Positions 5,097 through 62,261 of a DNA stretch of 64,000 nucleotides are shown here, piece after piece. Location of the stretch: NCBI GenBank assembly GCA_024682255.1, contig GCA_024682255.1_4716.1. The stretch is one strand, 5' to 3'. A model generated the notes under the pieces. The model was not told the DNA's origin. It ran no database searches and worked only from the letters and a program-made list of their open reading frames with translations. Made by a program: the position numbers and the translations under genes. The first letter of the stretch is position 1; each line of letters opens with the position of its first letter. Source of the stretch: a phage.

Positions 5097-5582
5097 CTAT
5101 CCAGCTTTCTGTTGTAAAGCGTATGGATCCATAGCGTCTGACATATCCGCAAAAACGGTGAGAATAAACCCCTTTATCTGTCTCACTTCGGTCACACGCA
5201 ATCCTTTATCGTTACGATATACGTTTTCCTCACCAACCAACTTTGGTCGGATAACATAAACGCCATCAACAAACGGGAATGTCGAATACGGATAAACACC
5301 AATAGAAATGATGTTTGGATGATCGCCTCGAAGGTCACGTCCGAACTTATCGACTCGGCCATAAACCGTTCCATCCACACCCTCCACTTCAATAAGGTCG
5401 TTACGAATATCCTGAAATAGCTGCTCTAACGTGTCGGCGGGGTACGTATATGCGACGCCTAACGCTGGATCCTCGATCGTTTTGACATTGAATCCGTTAA
5501 GCCAAACAATCCGTTCATCCGCCCATGTTTCTTCATATACCGTTAATCCATCGCCGTATATGTTGGCGTGTGCTATCTCCAT
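5097..5582 (-). CDS. hypothetical protein (161 aa)
   Basis: ORF in minus-strand array. Confidence 0.5.
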   Translation of the reverse strand: MEIAHANIYGDGLTVYEETWADERIVWLNGFNVKTIEDPALGVAYTYPADTLEQLFQDIRNDLIEVEGVDGTVYGRVDKFGRDLRGDHPNIISIGVYPYSTFPFVDGVYVIRPKLVGEENVYRNDKGLRVTEVRQIKGFILTVFADMSDAMDPYALQQKAG

Positions 5583-14148: not shown

Positions 14149-14349
14149 AACCTCTTTTCGCGGTTCCCTGTTAAAACGTCTTCTGTGACGTCTACCACAA
14201 AGGTAATATAAGCGTGAATAATTTTGGATTCCGGCTGAGTTATCGCTCAGCATGCAAGGCATCCCGCCGAAGCGAGACACCTTGCACTAACGGAAAATAT
14301 TCGCGTTACCTTCTGAATCGAAGACTCAGAATGCGATGCTAAAGCATGA

Positions 14350-15141
14350 TTAGAACGCTAAGCCATCAAAGGCTACGGACGGATCATCGTCGTCATTTGC
14401 GCTTGGCGCATCCCAACGGGTATCAGGGGCCGCTGAAGCCGAACTTGATGCGTTAGAGTTACCGTTGTACTGGCCGTTACCAGCATTACGGTTACCGCCA
14501 CCGTTGTTATTGTTACGGTTATAGCTATTGTTGCCACCATTACTTACGCTACGGCTTTCACCGTCGAAATTGGTTGCGAGGATGCTCGGCAACACTGCGC
14601 GATGAATACGTACAAATTCCAACGCACAAAGCGGAGAAACAACCCCGATCTGTAAAGGTTGACCAGACTCATCAACCAGAGCGTGGAAGCGCGGTGGCTT
14701 GAATACGAATTGGATGTTCGGTTTTTGGTACGCGGTTACAGCGATATATACCGAACCATCATCATTCTTACCAACCCATGTTGTACTTTCGGTAATCTGT
14801 TTCTTCTTACCTGGGTTATTGCGATCGTCGATAACCTTTTCGTTCTTCATCGCAAAACGTTGGCCTGGTTTACCCTTAGCAACCTGCTCGAGGATCGCAA
14901 GCAGGTTATAGAACGCGTATGAGCTCATGCGCGCCCAAATGCTTTCAGCGCGACCCTGCTGGTCTTTACGACCGGTGTAAACCGTGATACGCGGTTGATT
15001 CTTAGCAACGCTAATTTTCAATGAGGGGATTGAATTACCGCCCTCAACCTTTTCGTCCGCCCACAGTTTCCAGTTGTTGTCGTCATAAGCCGTAGGAATA
15101 ATGTTTCCTTGTGGTTTACTGCCCGAATTCCAATTGCTCAT
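14350..15141 (-). CDS. hypothetical protein; possible SSB-like architecture
   Basis: 263 aa; globular N-terminal part, then Asn/Gly-rich linker (NGGNNSYNRNNNNGGGNRNAGNGQYNGN), then acidic tip DDDDPSVAFDGLAF reminiscent of SSB C-terminal tails. Confidence 0.4.
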   Translation of the reverse strand: MSNWNSGSKPQGNIIPTAYDDNNWKLWADEKVEGGNSIPSLKISVAKNQPRITVYTGRKDQQGRAESIWARMSSYAFYNLLAILEQVAKGKPGQRFAMKNEKVIDDRNNPGKKKQITESTTWVGKNDDGSVYIAVTAYQKPNIQFVFKPPRFHALVDESGQPLQIGVVSPLCALEFVRIHRAVLPSILATNFDGESRSVSNGGNNSYNRNNNNGGGNRNAGNGQYNGNSNASSSASAAPDTRWDAPSANDDDDPSVAFDGLAF

Positions 15142-21043: not shown

Positions 21044-21268
21044 TTAGCAATGGTTGTTAGTTGCTTCTATTTCGTCAAGATACGGTTCTACGTCATCGCC
21101 CTCCACGAATTCGTTGAACCAACAGTCAATGGTAGAAATAACCGGTGACTGGTGTTCACATTTCTTAGATACCTTAAAAGGTACGTTATTATCCATCATA
21201 CCGAGTTCGGGTCGAAAACGCCCGAAATGTTTCGCAGTCCAAATGTCTGGGACGATATGGTTGTTCAT
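21044..21268 (-). CDS. RNA polymerase beta-prime N-terminal subunit, exon 3 (MNNHIVP...; 74 codons)
   Basis: MNNHIVPDIW...GMMDNN aligns with the segment immediately after the catalytic DGD in beta-prime (E. coli DGDQMAVHVPL...LMMSTNN; Rpb1 DGDEMNLHVP). Frame is closed by TAG 3 codons upstream of the annotated ATG, so it cannot be contiguous with exon 1. Proposed 3' splice site after G21269; alternative after G21281. Confidence 0.55.
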   Translation of the reverse strand: MNNHIVPDIWTAKHFGRFRPELGMMDNNVPFKVSKKCEHQSPVISTIDCWFNEFVEGDDVEPYLDEIEATNNHC

Positions 21269-21623
21269 CGTGGTGTTCAGCATGAGTCGCTACCTCATAC
21301 CCGCAGCTTTACCTGCAGCTTCCGGTGTTACCGGAATGTCCAGAATACATCTTATCCATATTCCAAATGGAACGTAGGACTTCCGCGCTGGATCTCGCTT
21401 GAGACCACGTATTCGTTGAACGTTCTCCTGAACGGAGCTTCGCTGCTGATCGAACATTGTCACGTACGGTAGGCGTCCCCGAAGGGATTGTCATTGAAGC
21501 CGCGTACATCCGCTACCTTGTTTCTACCTTATCGGTTCCTCTTACGAGGCGTAGCGGCCTTAGCCCTTCCCAGCAATTCACGGAATCCAAGCTCTTCCTT
21601 TCGGAAGGCAGGGCCTATGATTA
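21269..21623 (-). ncRNA. group I intron B (ORF-less, about 355 nt) in beta-prime gene
   Basis: Minus-strand core elements in canonical order: P GAATTGCTGGGAAG (21566-21579), Q GATCAGCAGCGAAGC (21437-21451; P4 TTGCTG/CAGCAG), R GTTCAACGAATACG (21408-21421), S AAGATGTATTCTGG (21340-21353; P7 GAATAC/GTATTC); ends in G. Its 5' guide (P1) pairing was not identified, so boundaries are provisional. Confidence 0.5.
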
Positions 21624-21636
21624 AGCGTCACCGTCG
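21624..21636 (-). CDS. RNA polymerase beta-prime N-terminal subunit, 13-nt mini-exon encoding (F)DGDA
   Basis: Minus-strand cgacggtgacgct lies 8 nt after the HNH stop; first 6 nt CGACGG pair with intron A guide CCGTCG (P10); joined to exon 1 it restores YNADF-DGD; genomic continuation is GCT TAA (stop), so a second splice is required. Confidence 0.5.
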
Positions 21637-23051
21637 CTGTAGTTTAATTTGGTCGAACGTATTCCAATTTCAATCCATGCCAATTACCGCCTTTACTAAT
21701 AGCGGTACTTATCGTAGTCGGATGTACTTTATGTTCTTCAGCAAGGGCGAATCTATCAGGATAGACTTTATGTGTACCATCCTCAAACACCACCTTTACT
21801 GGGAACCTTTGTAATCCACCAGTTTTTGGTCTAGGCTCTTTAGGAATATATTTACACTCGTTCACATCACCAGGATAATTCCTTGTCCACCATGCTTTCC
21901 AACCGTTTCTGGAAAACGTCTTATCTCCATGACATAAGCTATGGCTTAATGTCGCATAACTCACTCCCGCCATTGTTGCCGCCATTACGGTACTTTCCAT
22001 GTGGTACTTGTCTCCATCGGGCGATATTAAAACCAGCCCGCCGTAAATAACATACGACTTACCGACGTCTTCGGATGTGAAACCAACAAATTCCATTCCA
22101 TGGGTAGCCGCATCGTAATACTTCATCAACGGCCATTGTCGTGTTGTACGGAACCATTTTGAAATCTGGGTGTGTGGGATACCGTAACACTTGGCTGCAT
22201 CACGCATGCTGTAATGTTCGGTTATCTCACCAGTTCTCAAATCCTTTATCCATACGGTTTTAGCTTTCCAGTTCAAGCCGGTACGATAGGCATGGTACGT
22301 ATTTTGGGATTGACTTGTCCATTCAAGATTATCCAGGCGGTTGTTATCTTTAACTCCATCAAGATGGTTACCTACTAACATTGATCCCTCAGGAAGCATA
22401 GGTTTTTCACGAAAGGTTGATAGAACAACATGATGAGCTGCTATATCTCTACCTTCATGTCTAACCCTTACATATCCGAATATGTTAGTTTTTCCTACTT
22501 CCTCTCCAGTATAGGCATCTATAATGACACCCTCCTCGGAAGCGGCAAGTCCTGGATAATCTTTACAGTGGTAAAATCCTGGGAATTTTGTCTCTCTAAG
22601 TTTCATCTTCTCTCCGTTATCGGCCAACAGAGAGAAAACGTTCCTCGGAGGCCGACGTTTTCAAATTAAACTATGTTATCGACTATATCTTCATCCTCAT
22701 TGCGAGGAGACTCTCGTTTGGGTTTGTGTTTAACAAAGCCTACTCTACTCAACATCGCGTCTTTCGATAGTCTGTGAGCACACATCTTAACGAATATTCG
22801 TAGATTCCTACAGGCAGGTGAATATTCTTGTTGAGATGCTTCGCTGCGGATTATTCCCGTCCTACCTCTTTTACCATACCCAGGTCATTACGCTGGCCCT
22901 CATCTATGTCACCATGATGAGTTGGTGTGTAGTCCGATTACAGAAACTTCCCGTCAATTAGAGAGTTTTAACTATGCTCCTGTTACCAGGAACCCGACTC
23001 CGACGGCATCAATAAATCAACGTAAGTTATTGATTTAATTGAAGAAATTGG
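21637..23051 (-). mobile_element. group I intron A (about 1.4 kb) carrying an HNH homing endonuclease gene, inserted in the beta-prime NADFDGD codons
   Basis: Minus strand: guide CCGTCG-GAGTCGG (23006-22994) pairs with exon 1 end CCGACTT (P1, U-G at splice site) and exon 2 start CGACGG (P10); P2 hairpin TCCTGGTAACAGGA; P TAATTGACGGGAAG (22947-22960); Q AATCCGCAGC (22843-22852; P4 with bulged A); R GCTCACAGACTAT (22767-22779); S AAGATATAGTC (22681-22691; P7 GACTA/TAGTC); HEG in 3' extension; terminal G at 21637. Confidence 0.8.
21644..22627 (-). CDS. HNH homing endonuclease (intron-encoded)
   Basis: 327-aa ORF; HNH motif HHVVL...VGNHLDGVKDNNRLDNLEW; sits between intron A core and 3' splice site; annotated start is TTG, first ATG 21 nt downstream (MKLRETK...). 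Confidence 0.8.
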   Translation of the reverse strand: MADNGEKMKLRETKFPGFYHCKDYPGLAASEEGVIIDAYTGEEVGKTNIFGYVRVRHEGRDIAAHHVVLSTFREKPMLPEGSMLVGNHLDGVKDNNRLDNLEWTSQSQNTYHAYRTGLNWKAKTVWIKDLRTGEITEHYSMRDAAKCYGIPHTQISKWFRTTRQWPLMKYYDAATHGMEFVGFTSEDVGKSYVIYGGLVLISPDGDKYHMESTVMAATMAGVSYATLSHSLCHGDKTFSRNGWKAWWTRNYPGDVNECKYIPKEPRPKTGGLQRFPVKVVFEDGTHKVYPDRFALAEEHKVHPTTISTAISKGGNWHGLKLEYVRPN

Positions 23052-24307
23052 AAGTCGGCATTGTAGCCTTTCAAGATCATCACGCTTAACCCGATGGTGT
23101 TATCCTGCGGATCGCGTTTAACCTTGGTGATTTCAAGACATTGGTTACTGCTTCGGTCAAGTGATGGGTTTCGAACAAAGCCGCACACAATCCCATCGAA
23201 CGGTGTATCAGCAATAAGCTCATCATGCAGCTCACTCATCATCGGATGATAATTACGGACATGTTCCGCAACGAACGCACGTGCTGCTCTTGGTGAATAA
23301 CCACGATGGAATAACTTGGATTGGATATGTTCTTTATTGGTTAAAGTAAATGGCGCGTATGGGAAATGCAGATGATAATAACGATGGTTCGCTGTTATCG
23401 AACTGATTACGGTACGCGTGGTGAATGGATGTAATGTACCTAATATGTTTTTACGTGTGATACCTTTCTTCTTACCGATGAACTCATCGAAAATAGCTGC
23501 GTGGTATTGCAGCAGCTTCAATTGCACTTTCGCCATCCAGTTTTCTTTCTTTCTGGCGCTCAAAGGTGTTGTTGGATGATAGATGCTATTCAGTGTACCA
23601 ATAGCATCGATCGCACCTTCCATTTTGCTATCCGCATAACGACCGGTTGGCGTATTCTCGATAACGAACATCATGGCTGCAGGAAAGCTGATATACTGAC
23701 TGAAGAACTTATCACGATGGATACGGATGAATTCTCGTAGCGTGTCAACTTTCTCCGTGTTCTTCGGTCCACGTAACGTCGGTCCTTTATACAAGATCTC
23801 CATGATGCGATCGAAGTTCTGTATAAAGCTATTTACGCCGCGACGTATCCCGAATACATCGAATTGCTGCTCCAGATAGTTCTTGAGTTCGATGGGTCGT
23901 TTTACATTTGGACGGTAACTGGCATCAATGAGCCACGTCATCGTTTCAAAGCTTTTGATATTCAACTCGCTTGCCAGCACGAGATGGACCAACGGGTTAA
24001 TGAACGCATCGATTCCTTCAGGAACACGCGCCCACACCGTCGAACGAATCTCTTGTTCTGCTGGGTAGGTTACAACCGTTTTACAGTTCGGACACACCGT
24101 GCCGAGCAGCTCACCACGATTGTAGAAACCGCAACCACATTGTGGTGTGATATCCAACGTATCGCTGGAGTAAACACGGGTGATGAAACTGTTTAATTTC
24201 TTCTTCTCTTCGACGACTTTTGTATCGTAATCATTCAACAAAATCGGCGTAAAAGGAAGTTCTGCGAGCTGTCTATCGAAACTCACGATATCGAGCATGA
24301 TGGCCAT
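23052..24307 (-). CDS. RNA polymerase beta-prime N-terminal subunit, exon 1
   Basis: ATG at 24307 with AGGAGA RBS; Zn finger CGCGFYNRGELLGTVCPNCK (like beta-prime Cys70-88); RNPSLDRSSNQ ~ NRAPTLHRLGIQ; ORF runs ...MILKGYNADF then QFLQLNQ-stop, truncating the universal NADFDGD motif; exon taken to end after the TT of the Phe codon (23052). Confidence 0.75.
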
Positions 24308-24348
24308 GGGGTATCTCCTACAAATGAAAAAGAACGTTAGGACGTATA

Positions 24349-24372
24349 AGGGAGGGAGGTTGCCCTCCCTCC
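24349..24372 (-). terminator. hairpin between chimallin-like gene and beta-prime gene (terminator/attenuator)
   Basis: GGGAGGGAGG ... CCTCCCTCCC stem; T-rich stretch downstream on minus strand. Confidence 0.4.
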
Positions 24373-24399
24373 CGTCAGATTACATCGAACGTTCTTCCA

Positions 24400-26295
24400 T
24401 TAGAACAGGTTGAATGCCCCACCCATGTTGTTAACGCCAACATTCGGACGATCGCTACGTGCGTAGATGTTACCGGAGATGTTACCCAGACCACGAGCAC
24501 GTGCTGCCATGTTACCACGAACAGCGGTACCTGCCAGGTGCTGGATGTTCTCAGGACGGATGGTGAAGCCAGCATCAGCCGCAGCTTCGATCAGCGCCTG
24601 CAGTGCTAACGGATCGAAGTCGTAACGCATTGCCCAGCCGGTTTGTTCCCAGCTACCAGACAGAACACGATCAATGATTTCGTGACGAGCGACAACACGC
24701 TGAGACATCGTCATATCGGTACGGTCGAAGCTGTCTTCCCAAGCTTCTACGGTATCCGGGTTAGTGATGTTCATCATGTACAGATCGTCCATATCACGAA
24801 TATCGTGACGGTGACCATCCTGGTGGTTGTAGTAACCCAGCGGGATACGGTTACCGGTAGCGTAGACCAGCGGTTGGCCGTATTGATATTTCTTGCTGAA
24901 GCAACCCAGGGTAGTATCATCGAATGCACGGAAGAGGGCTTTGTAACCTTCGGAGATTTCTTGAACTTTACCGTCAACGTTGCCCGTATAGATCTTCTCA
25001 GCCGCCGGGATCATACGCAGCAGCCAGCTATACTCGCCTTCTTCCGGTACGTCGATAGAAATCAGCAGAGACGGATACAGAACCTGTTGCAGGAACTTGT
25101 AAATCTGCTCGTTGGTTTGCGTAGACAGATCCAGCGGTGCAGTCACTTCAGGATCCAGCACCATCGCCAGAGCACCTGGGTTATGCGGACCAATACCACG
25201 AGCCGCGTTGCTGATTAAAGACTGTGCCCATGCCATGCCGCTGTTCAGCGTAGCGATGGTACCAATCAGACCCAGCACGAAGCTGTTCGGTGTGAACGCA
25301 TCCAGCTCCAGCGGGTAAACGCTGGTCATCACGTAACGCGGCTGGTATTGTACAGTCGGCGGTACCGGATAGCCGTTAACCAGAACAGGGCCTTGGTTGA
25401 AGGTCGGGTTCTGCGGGCTGTAGGTCAGGTCAATGTAACCGGTGGTGGCGACCAGACGCTGTTGACTATCGTAATCGCTCATCGCTTGACGGATGCGGTT
25501 AGAGATAGTTACAGTGATGTCAGAACGCACAGGGTTACCAACAATATCGCTGTCCTGCATACCGCTGGTGTTGTACTGAACGCTGCTGATTGGCTGATCG
25601 CTTGCCATCATGCCCAGGTTGAACTGCGGCAGACCCAGTTTATCACCGAGACGGATTTCGATCGCGGTTTGGATTGCGTTATCTGCAGCAGACAGCAGGG
25701 TGGTTGCCAGATGCGCAGATTCAGCGGTGATTTCATTGGTCACCACAGCCAGACCAGCGATACGAACAGTACCGTTAGACTTACCGCCAATAGCTGAGTA
25801 CATTGCCGCCATGACTTCGTTGATGAACGTACCGTTCAGGTTATCAACCCAGGTACGCGGTACCAGAATGTTACCATGCGGACCTTGTTCTTCACGACGC
25901 GGCAGCGGAGCCAGACCAGCAACCAGCGGCAGGACGTAACCGAAGAAGTGGTTATGATCACCAACTTTTGCACCGCTCATAACAACCAGGGTCGGATACG
26001 GTACGCTGTACTGGTTCGGGTCAACCGCAACAAAGATGAAGTCGTCTTTGAACTGGGTATCTTCCAGATATTTCTCCATCAGACGACGGAGATTCAGTAC
26101 CTGCTCGGAGCCGGTATTACGGCTGATACGACGGCTCAGTGTACGGTTGATCGTACGCATCGTATGAGTTACTTTAGGACGGTCGGCAAAATCTGCAGCG
26201 GTTTCCAGCGCCTCATCAGCACGTTGTGCGGTGCGGGTTTCAGCTGCACGAATTTCTACATTATCGTTACCGTTATTACGTACGTCTAAGCCCAT
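24400..26295 (-). CDS. abundant early protein; candidate phage-nucleus shell protein (chimallin-like)
   Basis: 631 aa; ATG with AAGAGGA RBS; strongly biased codon usage (CGT/GGT/CTG/AAC) typical of highly expressed genes; TATATTAC early-promoter motif about 72 nt upstream; immediately upstream of beta-prime N gene. Assignment rests on size and context only. Confidence 0.45.
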   Translation of the reverse strand: MGLDVRNNGNDNVEIRAAETRTAQRADEALETAADFADRPKVTHTMRTINRTLSRRISRNTGSEQVLNLRRLMEKYLEDTQFKDDFIFVAVDPNQYSVPYPTLVVMSGAKVGDHNHFFGYVLPLVAGLAPLPRREEQGPHGNILVPRTWVDNLNGTFINEVMAAMYSAIGGKSNGTVRIAGLAVVTNEITAESAHLATTLLSAADNAIQTAIEIRLGDKLGLPQFNLGMMASDQPISSVQYNTSGMQDSDIVGNPVRSDITVTISNRIRQAMSDYDSQQRLVATTGYIDLTYSPQNPTFNQGPVLVNGYPVPPTVQYQPRYVMTSVYPLELDAFTPNSFVLGLIGTIATLNSGMAWAQSLISNAARGIGPHNPGALAMVLDPEVTAPLDLSTQTNEQIYKFLQQVLYPSLLISIDVPEEGEYSWLLRMIPAAEKIYTGNVDGKVQEISEGYKALFRAFDDTTLGCFSKKYQYGQPLVYATGNRIPLGYYNHQDGHRHDIRDMDDLYMMNITNPDTVEAWEDSFDRTDMTMSQRVVARHEIIDRVLSGSWEQTGWAMRYDFDPLALQALIEAAADAGFTIRPENIQHLAGTAVRGNMAARARGLGNISGNIYARSDRPNVGVNNMGGAFNLF

Positions 26296-26359
26296 TTGGG
26301 ATTCCTCTTTTCTTAAACTTTATTAAATGACGTCATTGAATCAGCTTCTACTCGCTCAT

Positions 26360-26377
26360 TCACCTAGGTAATATAAC
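26360..26377 (-). promoter_or_regulatory. putative phage early promoter (TATATTAC core) upstream of chimallin-like gene
   Basis: Minus-strand GGTTATATTACCTAGGTG about 72 nt upstream of ATG 26295. Confidence 0.45.
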
Positions 26378-26549
26378 CCTGAAATTTTTTTCAATATTGG
26401 TGTAACCACATTGAACGATATAAACCCCTAGGCGAACGCTGCCGAGAAGCAACATTCTTTCTACATATAATCAGGATATGTCTGTAAACTTTTACTTCTC
26501 TTATTGAGAGTAAAGTCATATCCGTTTACCATCTTCTTACGGAGTTCGT

Positions 26550-27644
26550 ATGTTTCGTGTTTTAAATAACCTCCCGCGAACATCATCGGGTGTGCAACCC
26601 GTCCCTCAGAATGACTATCTAATACGCGAAGTTCAAAGAAACCTACAGACAATCCAGAACCACTATCAAGGTTTTACCTTCGCGGTTCAGAGCGATCACA
26701 TCCTTGCGTTGCTGCTTGCACAGCTCCCTATGAGATACGACATCTCAGTACAAACTTACTACGACATGATTCTCGATCTTACCCCAGAATTGGGTAATCG
26801 TGTCAAGTTGACAACATCAAGATACGCGGGTAAGTTATTCGACGGTGCTTTCTATCCGGGATTGCACGAAGCTATTATTGCAACCGGTGAAAGTCGTCTT
26901 ATTTCACGTGACATTCTTGACAACTGGCGTAATTGGTCACCAGTTAGAATCGTGACGCATCCATACGCAAATCTTCGTTACATTCCTCTTCACCGAAAGC
27001 AGGTTGAAGATGGACGAGGTTTTGCGGTCATTATGGTTGATGTACCTTTATTAGCGCTACAGTATCGAATGTGGTCTTTGGTCATGGGACATAACGTCGA
27101 CGGCAAATGGGTGGTTAAAGAACCGGTTACAAGCTTCCTTGCGAGTTTTCCGTTGGTTAACGCATTATACTCACACAACGATGTTGTTATACGCAATCGT
27201 TGTTTGTGGGTATCTCCGGCTAAGAATCCACTCAAATCACCAATTTACGTTAACGACCTTGATAACGTATTCAGCCAAGTCGTTCTGTCCGTACAGCATC
27301 ATTTATTACGAAGAAGACGAAGCTACACCGATATGCTTAAACAGATGCCGAGTTTATACGGTGATCAGTACCAAGCAACCCGAATGGGCTACACCGTCGA
27401 TCTTCGACAAACCCGATGGGCAAGGGATCTGGGTTGTCTGTCGTTATGGCAACAACTCGTCACATTGCAAAACGTATCTGAAAGCGTCGGATTCAGCAGC
27501 CAAATCGATAATGACCTGTACCGTGCTGCCGACCGGAGTCTAAAAGAAGGTAACTGGGAATCCTCTCCATTACCTGGCGATTTAAGACGTGAAGTTATTG
27601 CGCAGGTTGCCGACCTCTTAAAAATTCTTCCTGCTGGTGCATAA
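26550..27644 (+). CDS. hypothetical protein (364 aa)
   Basis: Plus-strand ORF divergent from the chimallin-like gene. Confidence 0.5.
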   Translation: MFRVLNNLPRTSSGVQPVPQNDYLIREVQRNLQTIQNHYQGFTFAVQSDHILALLLAQLPMRYDISVQTYYDMILDLTPELGNRVKLTTSRYAGKLFDGAFYPGLHEAIIATGESRLISRDILDNWRNWSPVRIVTHPYANLRYIPLHRKQVEDGRGFAVIMVDVPLLALQYRMWSLVMGHNVDGKWVVKEPVTSFLASFPLVNALYSHNDVVIRNRCLWVSPAKNPLKSPIYVNDLDNVFSQVVLSVQHHLLRRRRSYTDMLKQMPSLYGDQYQATRMGYTVDLRQTRWARDLGCLSLWQQLVTLQNVSESVGFSSQIDNDLYRAADRSLKEGNWESSPLPGDLRREVIAQVADLLKILPAGA

Positions 27645-34253: not shown

Positions 34254-35234
34254 TTAGAAAAGCAAGAAACCGCTATTCTTCGCTTCCGCTACAGTTTCGT
34301 CACCAACTTTCGGTGCTTGTTGACGTGCGTTACGATGTTCGATGTAACGTTTCGCTTCGTCCGCGATCTGTTTGATAATACCCCCTAAACGATCGGTACT
34401 TAAAACAAACGACGTCGCTTCACGAATTGGGCTGCTTTCAGGCACAAAACCATCACAGCTGTAAATAGCGCTAACACCCATGACTTTGGTCGCGTCTTTC
34501 GGATAAAGCGTACAGAAAGCAATCGGGCTATCGTTCTCTTTCGTCCAATCGTATCCCATGAACGTATTCAGTTCGGTGATCGTTGGTTCCAAACCGGTAA
34601 CACGTGGATGGTTTAAGAAGTTTTCCAGGTCGGCGCTGTCAAGACGGCGGTTCTCGCCAGAAAACAGAACACAAAGCTGGCTGATAACAACCTGCACGTC
34701 CAGGTTGACATCCTGCTCCGATTTCCCATTTTCGCCATTCATGTGATAGCTAACAATCACTGGACGTTTCAACCCTTCTGCAGCAGCCATCAGTCCTTTG
34801 AAGGTGCGATCGGCGTTGATGGTTTGGCGTTCATCATCGAACGAGGCGACGATACAACACACCACACGTTCACCGCGTTCCAGCAGATTAGCAACCAACG
34901 CAGGACCGGCAACAGAACCTGAACCACCGCTCAAACTAAAGACCACGATATTAAATTTACCTGGTGTATGCTTATTGAGAATACCTGGGATTTGCGAGCA
35001 GATCAGTTCAGCGTTCTCGTCACGCTTCTTACCGGAACCGTCTAACTCACGACCAGCTGCATCTTTAAAGATGTAAATATGATCGTCGCCCAGTGTGCTA
35101 TCGCGTAGGTTAGCGCGGCTGGTATCAACATACGTCATGCTGTGTAATCCTTTCGCGACTTCGCCTTCAAATGCTGAGCCGATTTCGCCACCACAACCAC
35201 CAACAGCCCAAATATGTACTTGGTTCTCTTGCAT
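34254..35234 (-). CDS. phuZ: tubulin/FtsZ-like GTPase (PhuZ-like)
   Basis: 326 aa; N-terminal VGGCGGEIGSAF and tubulin signature SLSGGSGSVAGPAL ([SAG]GGTG[SA]G-like); size matches phage PhuZ proteins. Confidence 0.7.
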   Translation of the reverse strand: MQENQVHIWAVGGCGGEIGSAFEGEVAKGLHSMTYVDTSRANLRDSTLGDDHIYIFKDAAGRELDGSGKKRDENAELICSQIPGILNKHTPGKFNIVVFSLSGGSGSVAGPALVANLLERGERVVCCIVASFDDERQTINADRTFKGLMAAAEGLKRPVIVSYHMNGENGKSEQDVNLDVQVVISQLCVLFSGENRRLDSADLENFLNHPRVTGLEPTITELNTFMGYDWTKENDSPIAFCTLYPKDATKVMGVSAIYSCDGFVPESSPIREATSFVLSTDRLGGIIKQIADEAKRYIEHRNARQQAPKVGDETVAEAKNSGFLLF

Positions 35235-35298: not shown

Positions 35299-36141
35299 AT
35301 GGGTGCTATTGACTACAGTGTAGATCGTATCTGTCGTACAATACCGGCAGATATCCTACAGTATTGCTATATCGATCGTTACGACTGGCGTAATCGCTAT
35401 CCTCGTTCCGTAGAAGACATCATTACCGATTGGGTAATCCGTAAACGGGTTATCGGCGACATCGATATCTACGGGGGACTACAAACCGTTATCCCCCTCG
35501 ATGATGCCGGTGTCACTATCGAAGAAGTCACCATTAACTGTTATGTTTTCCACATCCCGTTGGAAGCCACACAGGGACGTTATATCACGTCTGCATTATC
35601 CATTATTTCAGGGAGCGTGAACAACTACGGAATAAACTATAACGGGCAATGGGGTGCTTTCAACCAAACCCAGTTTCAACGTCAGCTTTGTGGGTGGAAC
35701 CCCGCAAGCAACACGTTACAGCAAGGGATGAACGCGTTCGGTCCCATGAACGTTCTTAGTACAGCCAACGTTGATATCATCGCCCCTAACACCATCATGG
35801 TGAACAACGTCACGCCTGTACAATTTCCCCTGAGTCTACGTTGTTTCCTTGCCCACGATCCGGAACTTACCAACCTCAGCATGGAGGTTTGGAACGACTT
35901 TTACAAACTCTGTTTATACGCCACACAAAGCGACATCTACAACAGAACCGTTATCCGTCTTGACAGAGGTGTTACAGCACAAGGACAAGAAGTCGGTGCA
36001 TTCAAGGAATACATCGATCGCTTTGCTGATGCTGAAAACACATATCAAGAATTCCTGAACGAAACGTGGGCGGGCGTTGCTGCCTGGAACGATCCACAAA
36101 CTAAACGTCGCGCTATTCGTTTGCAAACCGGTTACTTCTGA
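35299..36141 (+). CDS. hypothetical protein (280 aa)
   Basis: Plus-strand ORF divergent from phuZ. Confidence 0.5.
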   Translation: MGAIDYSVDRICRTIPADILQYCYIDRYDWRNRYPRSVEDIITDWVIRKRVIGDIDIYGGLQTVIPLDDAGVTIEEVTINCYVFHIPLEATQGRYITSALSIISGSVNNYGINYNGQWGAFNQTQFQRQLCGWNPASNTLQQGMNAFGPMNVLSTANVDIIAPNTIMVNNVTPVQFPLSLRCFLAHDPELTNLSMEVWNDFYKLCLYATQSDIYNRTVIRLDRGVTAQGQEVGAFKEYIDRFADAENTYQEFLNETWAGVAAWNDPQTKRRAIRLQTGYF

Positions 36142-36749
36142 TTAACAACAGCTTCCTCCCTCGGTGTTTTTGAGGGAGGTATTTGCCGCTTGAACACTTT
36201 CAGCACGTTCGCAAATTCAGCAGCAATAATACAGGCCGAGGTTGATAGCTTATTGCTGAAAATGAGATCGTCCGGTAAACAATCGAACTGAATACCGTAT
36301 TGCGTCTTTGTCTCATCAACGATCAATGATGGTGTCGATCTTGTCTTCGCGATATCGGTGATATACAAACGTAAAAATAATTCACCGTCTTCGCTATCCA
36401 TAAAACGATAGGTGTTACCAGAAAACGCAACACATGGCGTAACGATAAATTGAACACGATCGTCGATCGGATGGATATTTAACCAACGTTCGATATCACT
36501 GCTACTCACATTCCGCATATTTACTACGGTAAAAGCAAATAGCGTATCGTGATGTTTGGAATAATGCAGCACATACGCCGCACCTTTCTTCCTGTGAATC
36601 CCTTCAATGTATTCTATTGTCGTATAGCCGGATTTATATAGCTTTACTTGCGGTTTCTCACTCATCATAACAACCCTTCCCGTTTCATCGCAGCACGCAT
36701 ACTTGCGTAAAGCGCATTCTTCATTGCACCTGGACGCAACGGATAACAA
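36132..36749 (-). CDS. hypothetical protein (205 aa)
   Basis: ORF in minus-strand array. Confidence 0.45.
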   Translation of the reverse strand: MLSVASRCNEECALRKYACCDETGRVVMMSEKPQVKLYKSGYTTIEYIEGIHRKKGAAYVLHYSKHHDTLFAFTVVNMRNVSSSDIERWLNIHPIDDRVQFIVTPCVAFSGNTYRFMDSEDGELFLRLYITDIAKTRSTPSLIVDETKTQYGIQFDCLPDDLIFSNKLSTSACIIAAEFANVLKVFKRQIPPSKTPREEAVVNQK

Positions 36750-37364: not shown

Positions 37365-38189
37365 TTAACTATCGCTTTCTGATGTATCGACGTAGTTGAA
37401 AATACGATCCCGTAAACACTCGTAACGAGGCAACGCGCTAAGAATGATCATCTTCAACTGCATCGCGATCGATATGCGTTCTTCATCCGATGCATCATCT
37501 CCCCATTTACCCGGCTTAACCTGAATAGGTTCATGCGGATCCTGCGGGAATATAAAACTTAACAACAGATAATCCGTGCGGAACTCCCACACTTCTCGAC
37601 CGTCGTTATCGGTTTCTTTACGCAACGTGAAGAGTTGACGTTCGGTGGTTGGATCCAGCATCAGCGGTCGACCACGAACGATCTCCAGTTTACGTGGGCT
37701 GACGAACGTCGTACGTTCAGGAAGGTATTTTTCAACATCATCCGTATCCAACAAGAACAAAATGATGTCGTCGAAATACTTCGGTGCGTACGTGTGTATC
37801 GGTTCACCGTCGCTATACGAAGAGATCTCTTGGAGTATTGGTGTCTTAGACGAAAAGTTCTGGCATGAACCACGGGTGATCGGTAAGGTGGTCCATTGAT
37901 GTTCTGTAGACAATTCAACAGGCACCAACGGATAATCATCGATGAATACCACACACGTTGTACTAATGGGTATTCTTCCATCATTGCCGGGTTCAAAAAC
38001 CAAACGTATCTTACCAGTAATCAGCGCCATCTCGTCCGGCATTAAATGGCTTGCTGACCGGGCAAGTCTGAAACCGGCCGCCTGTTTATAAGGTTCAGGT
38101 TTATAGCCACGGACAATAAGAGAGACATCCGCAAGTTCAACGCTCACGAATACATCTTTGGTGTCTTCATTGTTCGTCGTTAACGTCAT
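37365..38189 (-). CDS. hypothetical protein (274 aa)
   Basis: ORF in minus-strand array. Confidence 0.5.
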   Translation of the reverse strand: MTLTTNNEDTKDVFVSVELADVSLIVRGYKPEPYKQAAGFRLARSASHLMPDEMALITGKIRLVFEPGNDGRIPISTTCVVFIDDYPLVPVELSTEHQWTTLPITRGSCQNFSSKTPILQEISSYSDGEPIHTYAPKYFDDIILFLLDTDDVEKYLPERTTFVSPRKLEIVRGRPLMLDPTTERQLFTLRKETDNDGREVWEFRTDYLLLSFIFPQDPHEPIQVKPGKWGDDASDEERISIAMQLKMIILSALPRYECLRDRIFNYVDTSESDS

Positions 38190-39204
38190 TGTTCATTTTC
38201 TCCATTGCAACGAATCGTTCAAGCTCGCGTAATAAACGCTCTTTTAACGCAGGATCAACTTCCGGAGCATGTTTATCACGATACCACTCTGTCCCGTTGT
38301 ATTGCAGGCTAACATGCCATGTTCCTAACGGGCTTTCCTCTGCAGCAGCGATGAAATTCTTAACGCCGGTTTTGGTAGGATACTCCATGATAGGAACGGC
38401 CTGCTTCAGATCCATTACGGTAAGATCCTGGAAGTTATAATCCAGAAGCGTTAATGCGCGTTTGTCGCGTAGCAGTAGCCCGCAATCTAAGATGGTGAAA
38501 TCGATACCCCAGAAACGTAACTTGCCTCCAACTCCAACAGGAGTGTGGCCACGATAAACCGCGAGATAAATCTCACCTTTATCGGTTTCCTTGTTGTACC
38601 CAGCAATGAACGCCGCTGTAATTAATGGTTGATGTCCTTTCGCTAAGAAGACAGGGTGGTTATGATACAACCAGTCACTACGAATCAGATCGGTAACCTG
38701 ACCTAAACGTGCTGTTGGTACCATCACCGATCCCAGAGTCTCATCAACAGGAACCTCGTAATATTCAAACAGAACGCCATCGATTTCTTCGGTAGCGTAA
38801 GGCGTACGTGTAGGATCGTTAAGGAGTTTACGGAGTTTTGTGTCGATTTCGTTAACACGGCTACCCTGTTCTTTCTCACGACTACCGATAACAAAAGCAA
38901 CAAGATTGCGCACGCTAACAAAAACATCATCTTTCTCGGTGTCGCTGAGATCAGCTTCATCCGGCATTGTTGTCCAATGTAACGGACCTTCAACGACCTT
39001 AAGCCATTTATCTTCACGTTCAGGATAAACAAAAGGCTTATGCACAGGAACACTGGTATGCTGAACCCGTAATAACAGGTTACATAACGATGGCAATGTT
39101 TTCTCCAGAGGAGGGACAATACCTGATGTAACGGAAATAACGTAACGATTAAGAACAAGAGAAGCTGAATAGGTGATGTTATCTAATCCTGGTAATTGAT
39201 CCAT
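38167..39204 (-). CDS. hypothetical protein (345 aa)
   Basis: ORF in minus-strand array. Confidence 0.5.
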   Translation of the reverse strand: MDQLPGLDNITYSASLVLNRYVISVTSGIVPPLEKTLPSLCNLLLRVQHTSVPVHKPFVYPEREDKWLKVVEGPLHWTTMPDEADLSDTEKDDVFVSVRNLVAFVIGSREKEQGSRVNEIDTKLRKLLNDPTRTPYATEEIDGVLFEYYEVPVDETLGSVMVPTARLGQVTDLIRSDWLYHNHPVFLAKGHQPLITAAFIAGYNKETDKGEIYLAVYRGHTPVGVGGKLRFWGIDFTILDCGLLLRDKRALTLLDYNFQDLTVMDLKQAVPIMEYPTKTGVKNFIAAAEESPLGTWHVSLQYNGTEWYRDKHAPEVDPALKERLLRELERFVAMEKMNNDVNDEQ

Positions 39205-54729: not shown

Positions 54730-55209
54730 TCAGTCTTTCAGCAGCTCAGCTGCATACGCACTGATGTTGTCGCGAATATGCTTAACCTGAGTTGTTGGGA
54801 AAGATTTCTTATACGCGGTGGTCAGGCGTCCGTAAACCTGTTTCTTCTCGTTAGAGCCGAAACCAACTTCAGCGCTACGTTGAACCGTTGCAGACACAAC
54901 GTCTTTGCCCAGCGGCAGGGTTACAGAAACAACGTCAACCTGTTTGTTATCCGCCATGAACTGCGCGCCAACGCGGCCAACCGCCAGACCGTGAGCCAGA
55001 CCGATATCGGTGGTCAGTTTCTGTGCTTTTTCCAGGATTTCTTTTTCTTCCGGTGTTACCAGAGTACCCAGGAAATCACTGCCCAGCTTCTGGCTACCAG
55101 ATTCGTCCAGTTTAATACCAGCGGCGATTTTATCAGAAAGAGCCTGAACTTCCGGACGTACGTTAGAAGTGGTTTCAGTCGCTACGGTGGTTTCTACAGC
55201 TTCAGACAT
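54730..55209 (-). CDS. abundant small protein (159 aa), function unknown
   Basis: Strong highly-expressed codon bias; TATATTAC motif about 124 nt upstream. Confidence 0.5.
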   Translation of the reverse strand: MSEAVETTVATETTSNVRPEVQALSDKIAAGIKLDESGSQKLGSDFLGTLVTPEEKEILEKAQKLTTDIGLAHGLAVGRVGAQFMADNKQVDVVSVTLPLGKDVVSATVQRSAEVGFGSNEKKQVYGRLTTAYKKSFPTTQVKHIRDNISAYAAELLKD

Positions 55210-55325: not shown

Positions 55326-55344
55326 CAGTTAGGTAATATAGACC
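55326..55344 (-). promoter_or_regulatory. putative phage early promoter (TATATTAC core)
   Basis: Minus-strand GGTCTATATTACCTAACTG about 124 nt upstream of ATG 55209. Confidence 0.4.
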
Positions 55345-60618: not shown

Positions 60619-61769
60619 TTATTTAGCGTCGTTAAAGTAAATATCAACAGCTCGTTCCGTTGCGTAGAGGAGACCAAGATTCACAGTCCCAACCACTTCC
60701 GGTGAACCGATGATACGGTTAGCGATACTGGTGCCACTGAAGATAGCATCAAGGGTGTGCCCGTCTTCGGTTTTGTTCACACCATGACCCACGGAAGAGA
60801 CAACGGATTTCGCTTGAGCTGCGAAGGTACCTTTATCACCCATCCCCGCACCAAGGTCGTAACGCATGAAAATACGGATGGCGATCTGGTTCTCGCCTAA
60901 CGGATTACCGTCTATTCTCACGTTACTGTTATTGATACGCCCCGTTGTTGCTTCGTTGAGTTTCAGTTCCTTAACGCGTTTAGCTCGTGCTTTATCCGCT
61001 TCACCGACGAGCGCTGCCATGGTTTCACTCATATCCTCAATCTGAGCGCGGTACAGTACATCGATCTGTACAACTTCACCATGAACGTCAGCACGTGGGT
61101 TATACTGACTCATACGACGTAATGCTTCAACGGCTTCCTGACTCTCATCACTCAGATCGGTTGCAATCGGTTCTTCCAGTGTTGCAAGGATCGTTCGAGG
61201 TTCAACGTGATCGCCGATTTTCACGAGACCGCGAATGTTGAGATGGGCGTCAACGATAAGCGTACGGCTCTTAATCGATGGTGTTACGAGACGATCGGCA
61301 AGATTGTCGAAGATATACGAACTGTCCTCGTGGGTCTCTGGAATATCCAGAATACCGACAAGAGACAGCACGCCTGCGCGCCAAACAACCTGACCTGGGT
61401 TCCACCAGTCGCGTTTAAAATAAAGACGATGGAAAACCACCACATCCTGATCCTTAACGCGATCCCCGACTTTATAATCGGTAATGAGATCGTGAGGATA
61501 ATACTTACCTGGTCCTTTCCCGATTATCGTACCGAGCTGGAAAACCTCTTCCCCTAACTCTGGATCGTCGTACTGTATCGTCAGCGCAGTTTTGGTGACC
61601 TTCTTGACAACACCATCGCCTTGGGCGGCAGCTGCGAAGAGTTTACCAACACGATGCGCGATAACAGTCTCACCGCCGGTGCGCCACGGTTGTACATCGT
61701 AACCTTCAGCAGCAATCATGCGGTTGTGCTGTATACCTATAAATACCAATCTCTTGGGCGAATTTAGTT
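60619..61769 (-). CDS. RNA polymerase beta-like subunit (second beta gene), exon 2 / middle segment
   Basis: VGILDIPETHEDSSYIFDNL ~ E. coli [33 protein letters not shown] ~ SGTVIDVQVFTRD; IAIRIFMRYDLGAGMGDKGTF...SVVS ~ [29 protein letters not shown]. No ATG at ORF start (annotated start is TTG), frame open back to 61770; 5' boundary approximate. Confidence 0.6.
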
Positions 61770-62261
61770 CTTATTCAACATAATCGTACTATTACCAGAA
61801 TAAGACTGAGATTAGATTGTTCAGATAAGGTCGTTGCTTGAAACGATCGTTTCAGCGCTCATCTTATCCCGGAGGCGACGATAGGCACATCACCTCCCGC
61901 TTGCGCTCTCACGCAAGAGCAGACTATATCACATCTCGTTTCAAACGGTGCTTCTTCAGCACCTCAACGAGAGTTCACTTCTTCCCAGCGCATCCAGCGC
62001 CATTCTCTTATCCAAGGAGAATGCCTCACTCGAGGGGTACAGGGGGATGAATCCCTTAGTCGTTGAACCTTTACCTTAGAACGCTTCACAGCGATCCTTA
62101 GGTACTTGGCTGCGGATTGTCCTTAAGCTATTATCTGTTTTTATACCATACCGTCTTTCTTTTCAGAATCCGTTTTGGTCGATAACAGCGATGGATGTCT
62201 TCGCAATTCAGTGAATCTCATCTACATGTCGCCACATAGACGGACCCTGCTATTAAAAGCG
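61770..62261 (-). ncRNA. group I intron C (ORF-less, about 0.5 kb) in beta gene
   Basis: Minus-strand core elements in order: P TGAATTGCGAAGAC (62197-62210), Q AATCCGCAGC (62109-62118), R GTTCAACGACTAAG (62055-62068), S GATATAGTC (61922-61930; P7 GACTA/TAGTC); sits between two beta-homologous ORFs that are consecutive in the beta alignment; exact splice sites not resolved. Confidence 0.6.

What the first reader, a model, noticed from the sequence alone, without database searches (positions are those of the whole stretch)
24400..26295. Highly expressed 631-aa early gene: candidate phage-nucleus shell protein, with PhuZ tubulin nearby
It has strongly optimised codon usage, a TATATTAC early-promoter motif upstream, and sits directly upstream of the beta-prime N gene. 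As far as I recall, that is where the shell protein gene lies in phiKZ-type phages. A clear tubulin-like PhuZ (GGCGG and SGGSGS motifs) lies at 34254-35234. Together these suggest a nucleus-forming phage. The shell assignment is by context and size only.
Basis: inference. Interest (0 to 1): 0.55.

Follow-up and report, generated by a model that had tools for sequence, protein, structure and literature searches.

The report
Goslar-type phage nuclear shell protein (chimallin)

Summary
The observation and the interpretation both hold. ORF 24400-26295 (-) encodes 631 aa. It is 616/631 identical, without gaps, to Goslar chimallin gp189 (PDB 7SQT). It passes the Pfam chimallin model (98.8 bits, cutoff 27). 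The whole window is collinear with Goslar at about 97% nucleotide identity.

The sub-claims also check out:
- Codon bias is extreme: lowest ENC of 58 ORFs, CAI z = +3.5.
- TATATTAC lies 72 nt upstream. It is one of four sense-strand copies, and each is followed by N5-TG.
- The next gene is the nvRNAP beta-prime N subunit, the same order as phiKZ gp54-gp55-gp56.
- PhuZ at 34254-35234 is 325/326 identical to Goslar PhuZ, with both quoted motifs.

The exact protein is already in NCBI as an E. coli "hypothetical protein" on a 240.8-kb contig. Goslar-like phages in bacterial assemblies have been described. This is therefore already known, and interest is low.

Seen in passing:
- The neighbouring beta-prime gene is split by two tandem group I introns around a 13-nt micro-exon that encodes the catalytic DGD.
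- Its homing endonuclease differs from Goslar's.
- A third intron, absent from Goslar, splits an RNAP beta gene.

The parts
24400..26295 (-). [quoted passage not shown]
   Evidence: ORF. Pfam PF25677 98.8 bits. PHROG 4795. PDB 7SQT 1403 bits, full length. 616/631 identical to Goslar gp189. Exact sequence = NCBI HCJ9335912.1.
26361..26400 (-). Putative virion-RNAP early promoter. A/T run, then TATATTAC (26375-26368), then N5-TG. Predicted start is G at 26361, giving a 66-nt 5' UTR.
   Evidence: Motif found. Four sense-strand copies share flanks and the 6N-G spacing. The architecture parallels the AR9/phiKZ early promoters, AT-rich element-(6N)-G+1 (PMC5312081). It is identical in Goslar. The transcription start site is inferred, not measured.
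26303..26308 (-). Shine-Dalgarno-like AGAGGA; its GAGG core (26307-26304) lies 8 nt before the ATG
   Evidence: Read directly from the sequence.
24328..24398 (-). Terminator-like extended hairpin right after the stop codon. Inner stem GGGAGGGAGGG-CAAC-CCTCCCTCCC (24373-24350) is followed by TTAT (24349-24346).
   Evidence: MFE -40.3 kcal/mol, z = -7.2, 0 of 200 shuffles fold as well. It resembles the phiKZ terminator motif, a G/C hairpin plus TTAT (PMC10914365). The simple T-run scan missed it.
23052..24307 (-). Context: exon 1 of the non-virion RNAP beta-prime N-terminal subunit (phiKZ gp55 homologue), ending in ...YNADF
   Evidence: 7ogp_A E = 6.6e-63. PHROG 2987. Splice model.
34254..35234 (-). 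Context: phuZ, the phage tubulin, 326 aa
   Evidence: PHROG 4733 E = 2.9e-68. PDB 9pm9 732.8 bits and phiKZ TubZ 3zbp E = 7.8e-29. 325/326 identical to Goslar PhuZ. GGCGG, SGGSGS and D202 present.
14353..15141 (-). Context: chmC, the nucleus-associated RNA-binding protein (Goslar gp176 homologue)
   Evidence: tblastn 98.5% identity over 262 aa. Goslar gp176 = ChmC (PMC11077065).

Best explanation
The gene encodes chimallin (ChmA), the protein that self-assembles into the square-lattice shell of the phage nucleus. The phage is a Goslar-type (Goslarvirus, Chimalliviridae) jumbo phage of E. coli or Salmonella.

Mechanism, taken from work on the 97.6%-identical Goslar protein:
1. The injected genome sits in an early-infection (EPI) vesicle. 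There the virion RNA polymerase transcribes early genes, including chmA.
2. The mRNA is translated in the cytoplasm. The extreme host-adapted codon bias fits the need for very many copies quickly.
3. ChmA protomers form tetramers through an N-terminal segment. The tetramers link through two C-terminal segments into a flexible 2-D lattice.
4. The lattice encloses the replicating genome and excludes host nucleases and ribosomes.
5. PhuZ filaments, encoded 8 kb away, rotate the compartment.

Shown here: the identity of the protein, its intact full-length architecture, the synteny, the codon bias, and the promoter-like and terminator-like elements that frame a monocistronic unit.

Inferred: early timing, the transcription start site, high expression, and shell assembly by this particular variant.
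For: Identity of the protein:
- Full-length 1403-bit match to PDB 7SQT. That entry is Goslar chimallin gp189, solved at 2.3-4.2 A and seen as an 11.5-nm square lattice in situ (PMC9365700).
- 616/631 identity, no gaps.
- No amino-acid change in residues 40-80 or 489-631. These ranges hold the NTS and CTS1/CTS2 assembly segments if Goslar's boundaries resemble those of 201phi2-1.
- Pfam and PHROG family hits.
- Distant chimallins of PhiPA3, phiKZ, 201phi2-1, RAY and Eowyn are also recovered.

Genome context:
- The window is collinear with Goslar 146584-210099 at 96.5-96.9% identity.
- It also carries PhuZ, ChmC, a divergent family-B DNA polymerase and multisubunit RNAP pieces.

Published function of the Goslar protein:
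- Goslar ChmA knock-down arrests infection at the EPI-vesicle stage, and ChmA is made from early vesicle transcripts (PMC10541120).
- GFP-ChmA marks the rotating nucleus, and PhuZ(D202A) stops the rotation (PMC9891218).

Expression signals:
- Codon bias.
- Promoter-like motif with 6N-G spacing.
- Terminator hairpin.
Against: Nothing contradicts the assignment. The caveats are:
- No expression or localisation data exist for this exact variant.
- TATATTAC is not numerically enriched over shuffles, and no Goslar transcription start map was available to me.
- 15 substitutions separate it from the solved protein, 8 of them clustered at residues 439-488. Their structural location was not examined.
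Confidence: 0.97

Rival explanations
1. The ORF is a capsid or other virion structural protein rather than a shell protein. This is the alternative the first reader named as refuting.
For: None found. The only structural-looking neighbour is the divergently transcribed ORF 26550-27644, which has a weak PHROG 'virion structural protein' hit.
Against: All significant hits are chimallins. Identity to an experimentally defined shell protein is 97.6%.
Confidence: 0.005
2. The protein is chimallin, but the TATATTAC element is not its promoter. chmA would instead be transcribed from another (middle, nvRNAP) promoter or by read-through, so 'early gene' would not follow from the motif.
For: - The motif count is not above shuffles.
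- In 201phi2-1 and phiKZ, promoter class does not always match expectation, and the phiKZ shell gene appears in many transcription units.
- I found no Goslar transcription start map.
Against: - All four copies are sense-strand, 57-123 nt upstream of gene starts. They share an A/T run and an exact N5-TG downstream, which matches the AR9/phiKZ vRNAP promoter layout.
- One of the other three copies precedes the only ORF with a higher CAI.
- Goslar ChmA is reported to be produced from early EPI-vesicle transcripts.
Confidence: 0.12
3. The sequence is not from an isolated lytic phage. It would be a 'persistent' Goslar-like phage genome carried in a bacterial isolate's assembly. The function of ChmA is the same and only the provenance differs.
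For: - The exact ChmA sequence is NCBI HCJ9335912.1, 'hypothetical protein [Escherichia coli]', on a 240,846-bp contig. Its 90% cluster has 249 members, mostly from E. coli and Salmonella assemblies on ~235-260 kb contigs.
- 59 Goslar-like persistent phages were reported from bacterial assemblies, against a single isolate (10.1101/2024.12.31.630880).
- Goslar itself is the only near match among 50,697 phage records.
Against: No match among complete RefSeq E. coli genomes. The window's source record was not identified directly.
Confidence: 0.7

Closest known systems
Escherichia phage vB_EcoM_Goslar chimallin (ChmA, gp189; YP_009820873; PDB 7SQT/7SQU/7SQV)
   Same: Same length (631 aa), gapless alignment, 97.6% identity. 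Same flanking genes, identical upstream region including TATATTAC, and the same terminator position.
   Different: 15 substitutions: G38D Q39R R81Q A167S A177V A326V T338S K439N E441D E443K R445Q Y455F V461T L474Q H488Y. Eight of them lie in residues 439-488 (permutation p = 0.0004), while synonymous changes there are at the expected level. ChmA is the 6th most diverged of 45 shared proteins of at least 150 aa (median 99.5%).
Chimallins of Pseudomonas phages 201phi2-1 gp105 (7SQQ), PhiPA3 gp53/PhuN (8FNE) and phiKZ gp54 (8IGG)
   Same: Same family (Pfam PF25677). Alignments span most of the protein. Same gene order, shell then nvRNAP beta-prime N then HNH endonuclease, in phiKZ.
   Different: Only about 19-24% identity. 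CTS2 is reported to be shorter in Goslar-type proteins, with a distinct set of contacts.
Goslar PhuZ (gp201) and phiKZ TubZ/PhuZ (3ZBP)
   Same: The window's PhuZ is 325/326 identical to Goslar PhuZ and keeps D202, the residue whose mutation stops nucleus rotation.
   Different: Goslar-type PhuZ forms a vortex rather than a bipolar spindle and does not centre the nucleus. It falls just under Pfam's tubulin gathering score (29.9 bits against 33).

Membership tests
Chimallin / ChmA (Pfam PF25677, PHROG 4795) | Sequence match to the family model above the curated threshold | tested here: met
   PF25677 98.8 bits against cutoff 27, covering residues 19-596. PHROG 4795 E = 2.2e-54 over residues 20-629.
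Chimallin / ChmA (Pfam PF25677, PHROG 4795) | Full-length colinearity with an experimentally validated shell protein | tested here: met
   Residues 1-631 align with residues 4-634 of 7sqt_A, 1403 bits. 616/631 identical to Goslar gp189. 7SQT is confirmed as Goslar chimallin.
Chimallin / ChmA (Pfam PF25677, PHROG 4795) | N-terminal segment (NTS) and C-terminal segments (CTS1, CTS2) that link protomers into the lattice | tested here: met
   No amino-acid difference from Goslar ChmA in residues 40-80 or 489-631. The segment boundaries I have are those of 201phi2-1: NTS 48-61, CTS1 590-611, CTS2 622-631. Exact Goslar boundaries were not retrieved.
Chimallin / ChmA (Pfam PF25677, PHROG 4795) | Encoded in a genome with the chimallivirus core set (two split multisubunit RNAPs, ChmC, usually PhuZ) | tested here: met
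   nvRNAP beta-prime N. RNAP beta pieces. PhuZ. ChmC. Divergent PolB PF20286.
Chimallin / ChmA (Pfam PF25677, PHROG 4795) | Self-assembly into a square lattice that encloses replicating phage DNA | not testable with these tools
   Shown for the 97.6%-identical Goslar protein, not for this variant.
Chimallin / ChmA (Pfam PF25677, PHROG 4795) | Early, abundant expression | tested here: inconclusive
   Indirect evidence only: ENC 34.4 and CAI 0.634, and a vRNAP-promoter-like motif with 6N-G spacing. There are no transcript data for this sequence.
PhuZ phage tubulin | Tubulin/FtsZ GTPase domain with the glycine-rich nucleotide-binding motifs and the catalytic Asp | tested here: met
   PHROG 4733 E = 2.9e-68. 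PDB 9pm9 732.8 bits, and phiKZ 3zbp E = 7.8e-29. GGCGG at residue 12, SGGSGS at residue 102, D202 present. Pfam PF00091 reaches only 29.9 bits against cutoff 33.
Goslarvirus goslar (species-level relative) | At least 95% nucleotide identity and collinear gene order | tested here: met
   96.5% over 21.6 kb, 96.9% over 39.1 kb and 92.8% over 1.7 kb, collinear apart from two mobile-element patches. Only this 64-kb window was tested, not the whole genome.

The most novel reading that the evidence does not exclude
The cluster of eight amino-acid replacements at ChmA residues 439-488 might mark a surface patch under diversifying selection among Goslar-like phages that persist in E. coli and Salmonella isolates. 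Synonymous changes there are at the expected level, and the assembly tails are fully conserved. Such a patch could be a contact site for a host sensor, or for phage import or docking partners, and could set compatibility between co-infecting relatives.
Probability: 0.1. Interest if true: 0.45.

Novelty: already known. Interest (0 to 1): 0.15.

Why it matters
As a discovery it matters little. Chimallin of Goslar-type phages has a high-resolution structure, in-situ tomography and knock-down phenotypes, and this variant differs at only 15 positions.

The practical value is in annotation. The exact protein, and a 249-member cluster of near-identical proteins in E. coli and Salmonella assemblies, are labelled 'hypothetical protein'. 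They can now be named ChmA, which flags those contigs as nucleus-forming jumbo phages.

The naturally occurring substitutions give a small map of tolerated variation on a solved structure. The side observations on the RNAP introns are more unusual than the finding itself.

Tried and rejected
- **Literature search for TATATTAC**: returned only unrelated papers. What I could cite is the general AT-rich element-(6N)-G+1 layout.
- **Simple promoter/terminator scan**: found nothing meaningful and missed the hairpin after chmA because it lacks a long T-run. Folding showed it.
- **Megablast of chmA against complete E. coli genomes**: no match.
- ****: failed because fetched loci are stored together in one file. 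****: failed on a phrase-length limit.
- **First splice model for the beta-prime gene** (exon 3 starting at 21280, 'DGDALNTTMNNH'): replaced by a junction 12 nt further on (21268, 'DGDAMNNH'). The new junction scores higher (255.3 against 251.5 bits), needs no gap against phiKZ, and matches the homologous 3' end of the phiKZ intron.
- **Recombination import as the cause of the 439-488 cluster**: rejected, because synonymous differences there are at the expected level.
- **Gene behind the 14203-14210 motif copy**: I considered that it served chmC. It lies downstream of chmC and upstream of the gp175 homologue.
- **Structure prediction and fold search**: deliberately not run, as they are redundant at 97.6% identity to a solved structure.

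Full report
**Observation.** The 2-kb bin that contains it has the highest G+C in the window, 0.521 against about 0.45-0.49 elsewhere.

**Identity.** Three independent libraries agree.
- Pfam PF25677 (Phikzvirus chimallin family) scores 98.8 bits against a cutoff of 27, over residues 19-596.
- PHROG 4795 'nuclear shell protein' gives E = 2.2e-54 over residues 20-629.
- A search of PDB sequences gives a full-length, gapless 1403-bit match to chain 7sqt_A 'Chimallin'. Weaker matches are PhiPA3 PhuN (8fne, 1.8e-22) and the chimallin chains 8igg_E and 7sqq_A (both 1.2e-11).

Laughlin et al. 2022 (PMC9365700) identify 7SQT/7SQU/7SQV as chimallin gp189 (631 aa) of E. coli phage Goslar. It was solved to 2.3-4.2 A and seen in infected cells as an 11.5 x 11.5 nm square lattice.

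Pairwise comparison with the Goslar gene gives 616/631 identical residues and no gaps.

**Genome context.** Window 22600-27700 matches Goslar at 96.9%. The whole window is collinear with Goslar 146,584-210,099, at 96.5% and 96.9% over the two long blocks. RefSeq annotates the Goslar counterparts as nuclear shell protein, RNA polymerase beta subunit, group I intron, HNH endonuclease, DNA polymerase and tubulin PhuZ. In the phage collection the next-nearest chimallin after Goslar is only 23.6% identical, in Klebsiella phage Eowyn.

- *Codon usage.* ENC is 34.4, the lowest of 58 ORFs of at least 100 aa (mean 49.9, sd 5.4). CAI with E. coli weights is 0.634 (mean 0.307, z = +3.5, second of 58). 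CTG is 89% of Leu codons and CGT is 95% of Arg.
- *Promoter motif.* TATATTAC is at 26375-26368 (-), 72 nt before the ATG. The raw count is not above shuffles, 4 against 2.3. But all four copies are on the sense strand, 57-123 nt upstream of gene starts. They follow an A/T run, and each is followed by N5-TG. This mirrors the virion-RNAP early promoters of AR9, AAATATATATTAT-(6N)-G+1, and the stated rule that phiKZ-type early promoters start 6 nt after an AT-rich element (PMC5312081). By analogy the chmA transcript would start at G 26361. One of the other three copies precedes the only ORF with a higher CAI (54730-55209). The Goslar upstream region is identical across the motif and differs at only a few bases further upstream.
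- *Terminator.* Directly after the stop codon is an extended hairpin of -40.3 kcal/mol (z = -7.2). Its core is GGGAGGGAGGG-CAAC-CCTCCCTCCC followed by TTAT. This resembles the phiKZ terminator motif described in PMC10914365. chmA therefore looks like a self-contained, monocistronic unit.
- *Downstream gene.* ORF 23027..24307 matches phiKZ nvRNAP gp55 (7ogp_A, E = 6.6e-63), which is the beta-prime N-terminal subunit. The phiKZ record shows the same order: gp54 shell, gp55 RNAP, gp56 HNH, gp56.1.
- *PhuZ.* ORF 34254..35234 hits PHROG 'tubulin PhuZ' at 2.9e-68, a near-identical solved structure (9pm9, 732.8 bits) and phiKZ TubZ (3zbp). It is 325/326 identical to Goslar PhuZ. It carries GGCGG, SGGSGS and D202. 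D202 is the residue whose mutation abolishes nucleus rotation in Goslar (PMC9891218).
- *ChmC.* The window also encodes ChmC at 14353-15141, 98.5% identical to Goslar gp176.

**How it works.** The mechanism is inferred from the near-identical Goslar protein.
1. The genome is injected into an early-infection vesicle.
2. The virion RNAP transcribes early genes there, including chmA.
3. ChmA then assembles next to the vesicle into the nuclear shell, which receives the genome.
4. Knock-down of ChmA arrests infection at the vesicle stage (PMC10541120).
5. Lattice assembly uses an N-terminal segment within tetramers and two C-terminal segments between tetramers.

The window's protein has no substitution in residues 40-80 or 489-631.

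**Differences from Goslar ChmA.** There are fifteen substitutions. Eight fall in residues 439-488 (permutation p = 0.0004), while synonymous changes there are as expected, 4 against 3.5. This argues for a locally tolerant or selected patch rather than a recombination import. ChmA is the 6th most diverged of 45 shared proteins of at least 150 aa, at 97.6% against a median of 99.5%.

**Novelty.** The exact protein is already in NCBI as HCJ9335912.1, 'hypothetical protein [Escherichia coli]', on a 240,846-bp contig. Its 90% cluster has 249 members, largely from E. coli and Salmonella assemblies. A preprint reports 59 Goslar-like 'persistent' phages in bacterial assemblies, 59 of 60 genomes having chimallin more than 90% similar to Goslar's (10.1101/2024.12.31.630880). 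The finding is correct but already known.

**Noticed in passing: introns in the RNAP genes.**
- *The catalytic motif is split.* The beta-prime ORF ends ...YNADF plus a few junk residues, so the universal NADFDGD catalytic motif is interrupted.
- *Intron 1.* Rfam finds a group I intron core at 23041-22660 (54.8 bits). An HNH endonuclease ORF follows at 22627-21644.
- *Micro-exon.* Seven nucleotides after that ORF's stop codon, and right after a G, lies CGACGGTGACGCT (21636-21624). Joined to exon 1, it reads F-D-G-D-A.
- *Intron 2.* A second, ORF-less intron follows. It has a weak Rfam hit (21.3 bits, E = 0.015). It is clearly homologous to the phiKZ gp55 intron core, which scores 75.6 bits.
- *Exon 3.* Exon 3 (21268-21044) is what Goslar annotates as 'gp185 hypothetical protein'.
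- *Test of the splice model.* The spliced 497-aa product aligns with phiKZ gp55/56.1 to residue 495 of 508 at 255.3 bits, against 216.3 unspliced. It also now recovers cellular beta-prime subunits.
- *Comparison with phiKZ.* phiKZ has one intron, at N|ADFDGD. This lineage has two, at NADF|DGDA|M. Goslar shares the micro-exon and intron 2.
- *Different endonuclease.* The endonuclease here is only 26% identical to Goslar's in global alignment (29% by BLASTP). The DNA is non-homologous over 21639-22675.
- *Third intron.* A third group I intron (62264-61759, Rfam 56.3 bits) splits an RNAP beta gene that is uninterrupted in Goslar. The adjoining exon is only 92.8% identical.

Introns and intron endonucleases in chimallivirus RNAP genes are known. 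I found no description of the micro-exon arrangement.

Noticed in passing
window 21044-24307 (-): The nvRNAP beta-prime N gene next to chmA appears to be split by two tandem group I introns. They flank a 13-nt micro-exon (21636-21624, CGACGGTGACGCT) that supplies the catalytic DGD of NADFDGD.
- Exon 1: 24307-23052.
- Intron 1: 23051-21637, containing the HNH endonuclease ORF.
- Intron 2: 21623-21269, no ORF.
- Exon 3: 21268-21044.

The spliced 497-aa product scores 255 bits against phiKZ gp55/56.1, compared with 216 bits unspliced. phiKZ has a single intron a few codons upstream.
   Followed up: yes
window 21639-22675 (-); L001 7954-8964: The intron-encoded HNH endonuclease (ORF 21644-22627, 327 aa) is only 26% identical to Goslar's gp186 in global alignment (29% by BLASTP) and lacks its NUMOD1 hit. 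The DNA is non-homologous, although the flanking intron core and exons are about 97% identical. This is an endonuclease swap within the same intron. This exact ORF is not in the 15-billion-protein collection.
   Followed up: partly
window 61759-62264 (-): A 506-nt ORF-less group I intron (Rfam 56.3 bits) interrupts the RNAP beta-subunit gene (Goslar gp207 homologue; PHROG 3148 positions 487-1050 | 1055-1420). It is absent from Goslar. The upstream exon flank (62279-64000) drops to 92.8% identity, against 96.9% elsewhere. This is as expected for co-conversion after intron homing.
   Followed up: partly
L001 7341-7580 (Goslar 167622-167861, gp185): RefSeq annotates Goslar gp185 as a free-standing 'hypothetical protein'. 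It is the 3' exon of the beta-prime N subunit. The 13-nt micro-exon and intron 2 are not annotated.
   Followed up: partly
window 54730-55209 (-), motif at 55333-55340: This 159-aa ORF of unknown function (PHROG 9746; Goslar gp214) has the highest CAI in the window (0.666) and the second-lowest ENC. It is preceded by the same TATATTAC-N5-TG element as chmA. It is probably another very abundant early protein.
   Followed up: partly
window 24832-24981 (ChmA residues 439-488): Eight of the 15 amino-acid differences from Goslar ChmA cluster here (permutation p = 0.0004), with synonymous changes at the expected level. Residues 489-631 and 40-80 are invariant. The structural location was not examined.
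   Followed up: partly
window 14353-15141 (-): A ChmC homologue (the nucleus-associated Whirly-fold RNA-binding protein, Goslar gp176), 98.5% identical to Goslar's. A TATATTAC copy (14203-14210) lies between its stop codon and the next gene.
   Followed up: partly
window 38167-39204 (-) and 5097-5582, 36132-36749: A few proteins are much more diverged from Goslar than the 99.5% median: 83.5% (gp228 homologue), 93.2% and 93.7%. All are of unknown function.
   Followed up: no
protein cluster of window 24400-26295: The exact ChmA sequence, and 248 near-identical ones, sit in E. coli and Salmonella enterica assemblies on ~235-260 kb contigs. All named members listed are labelled 'hypothetical protein'. 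This is consistent with the reported 'persistent' Goslar-like phages.
   Followed up: partly
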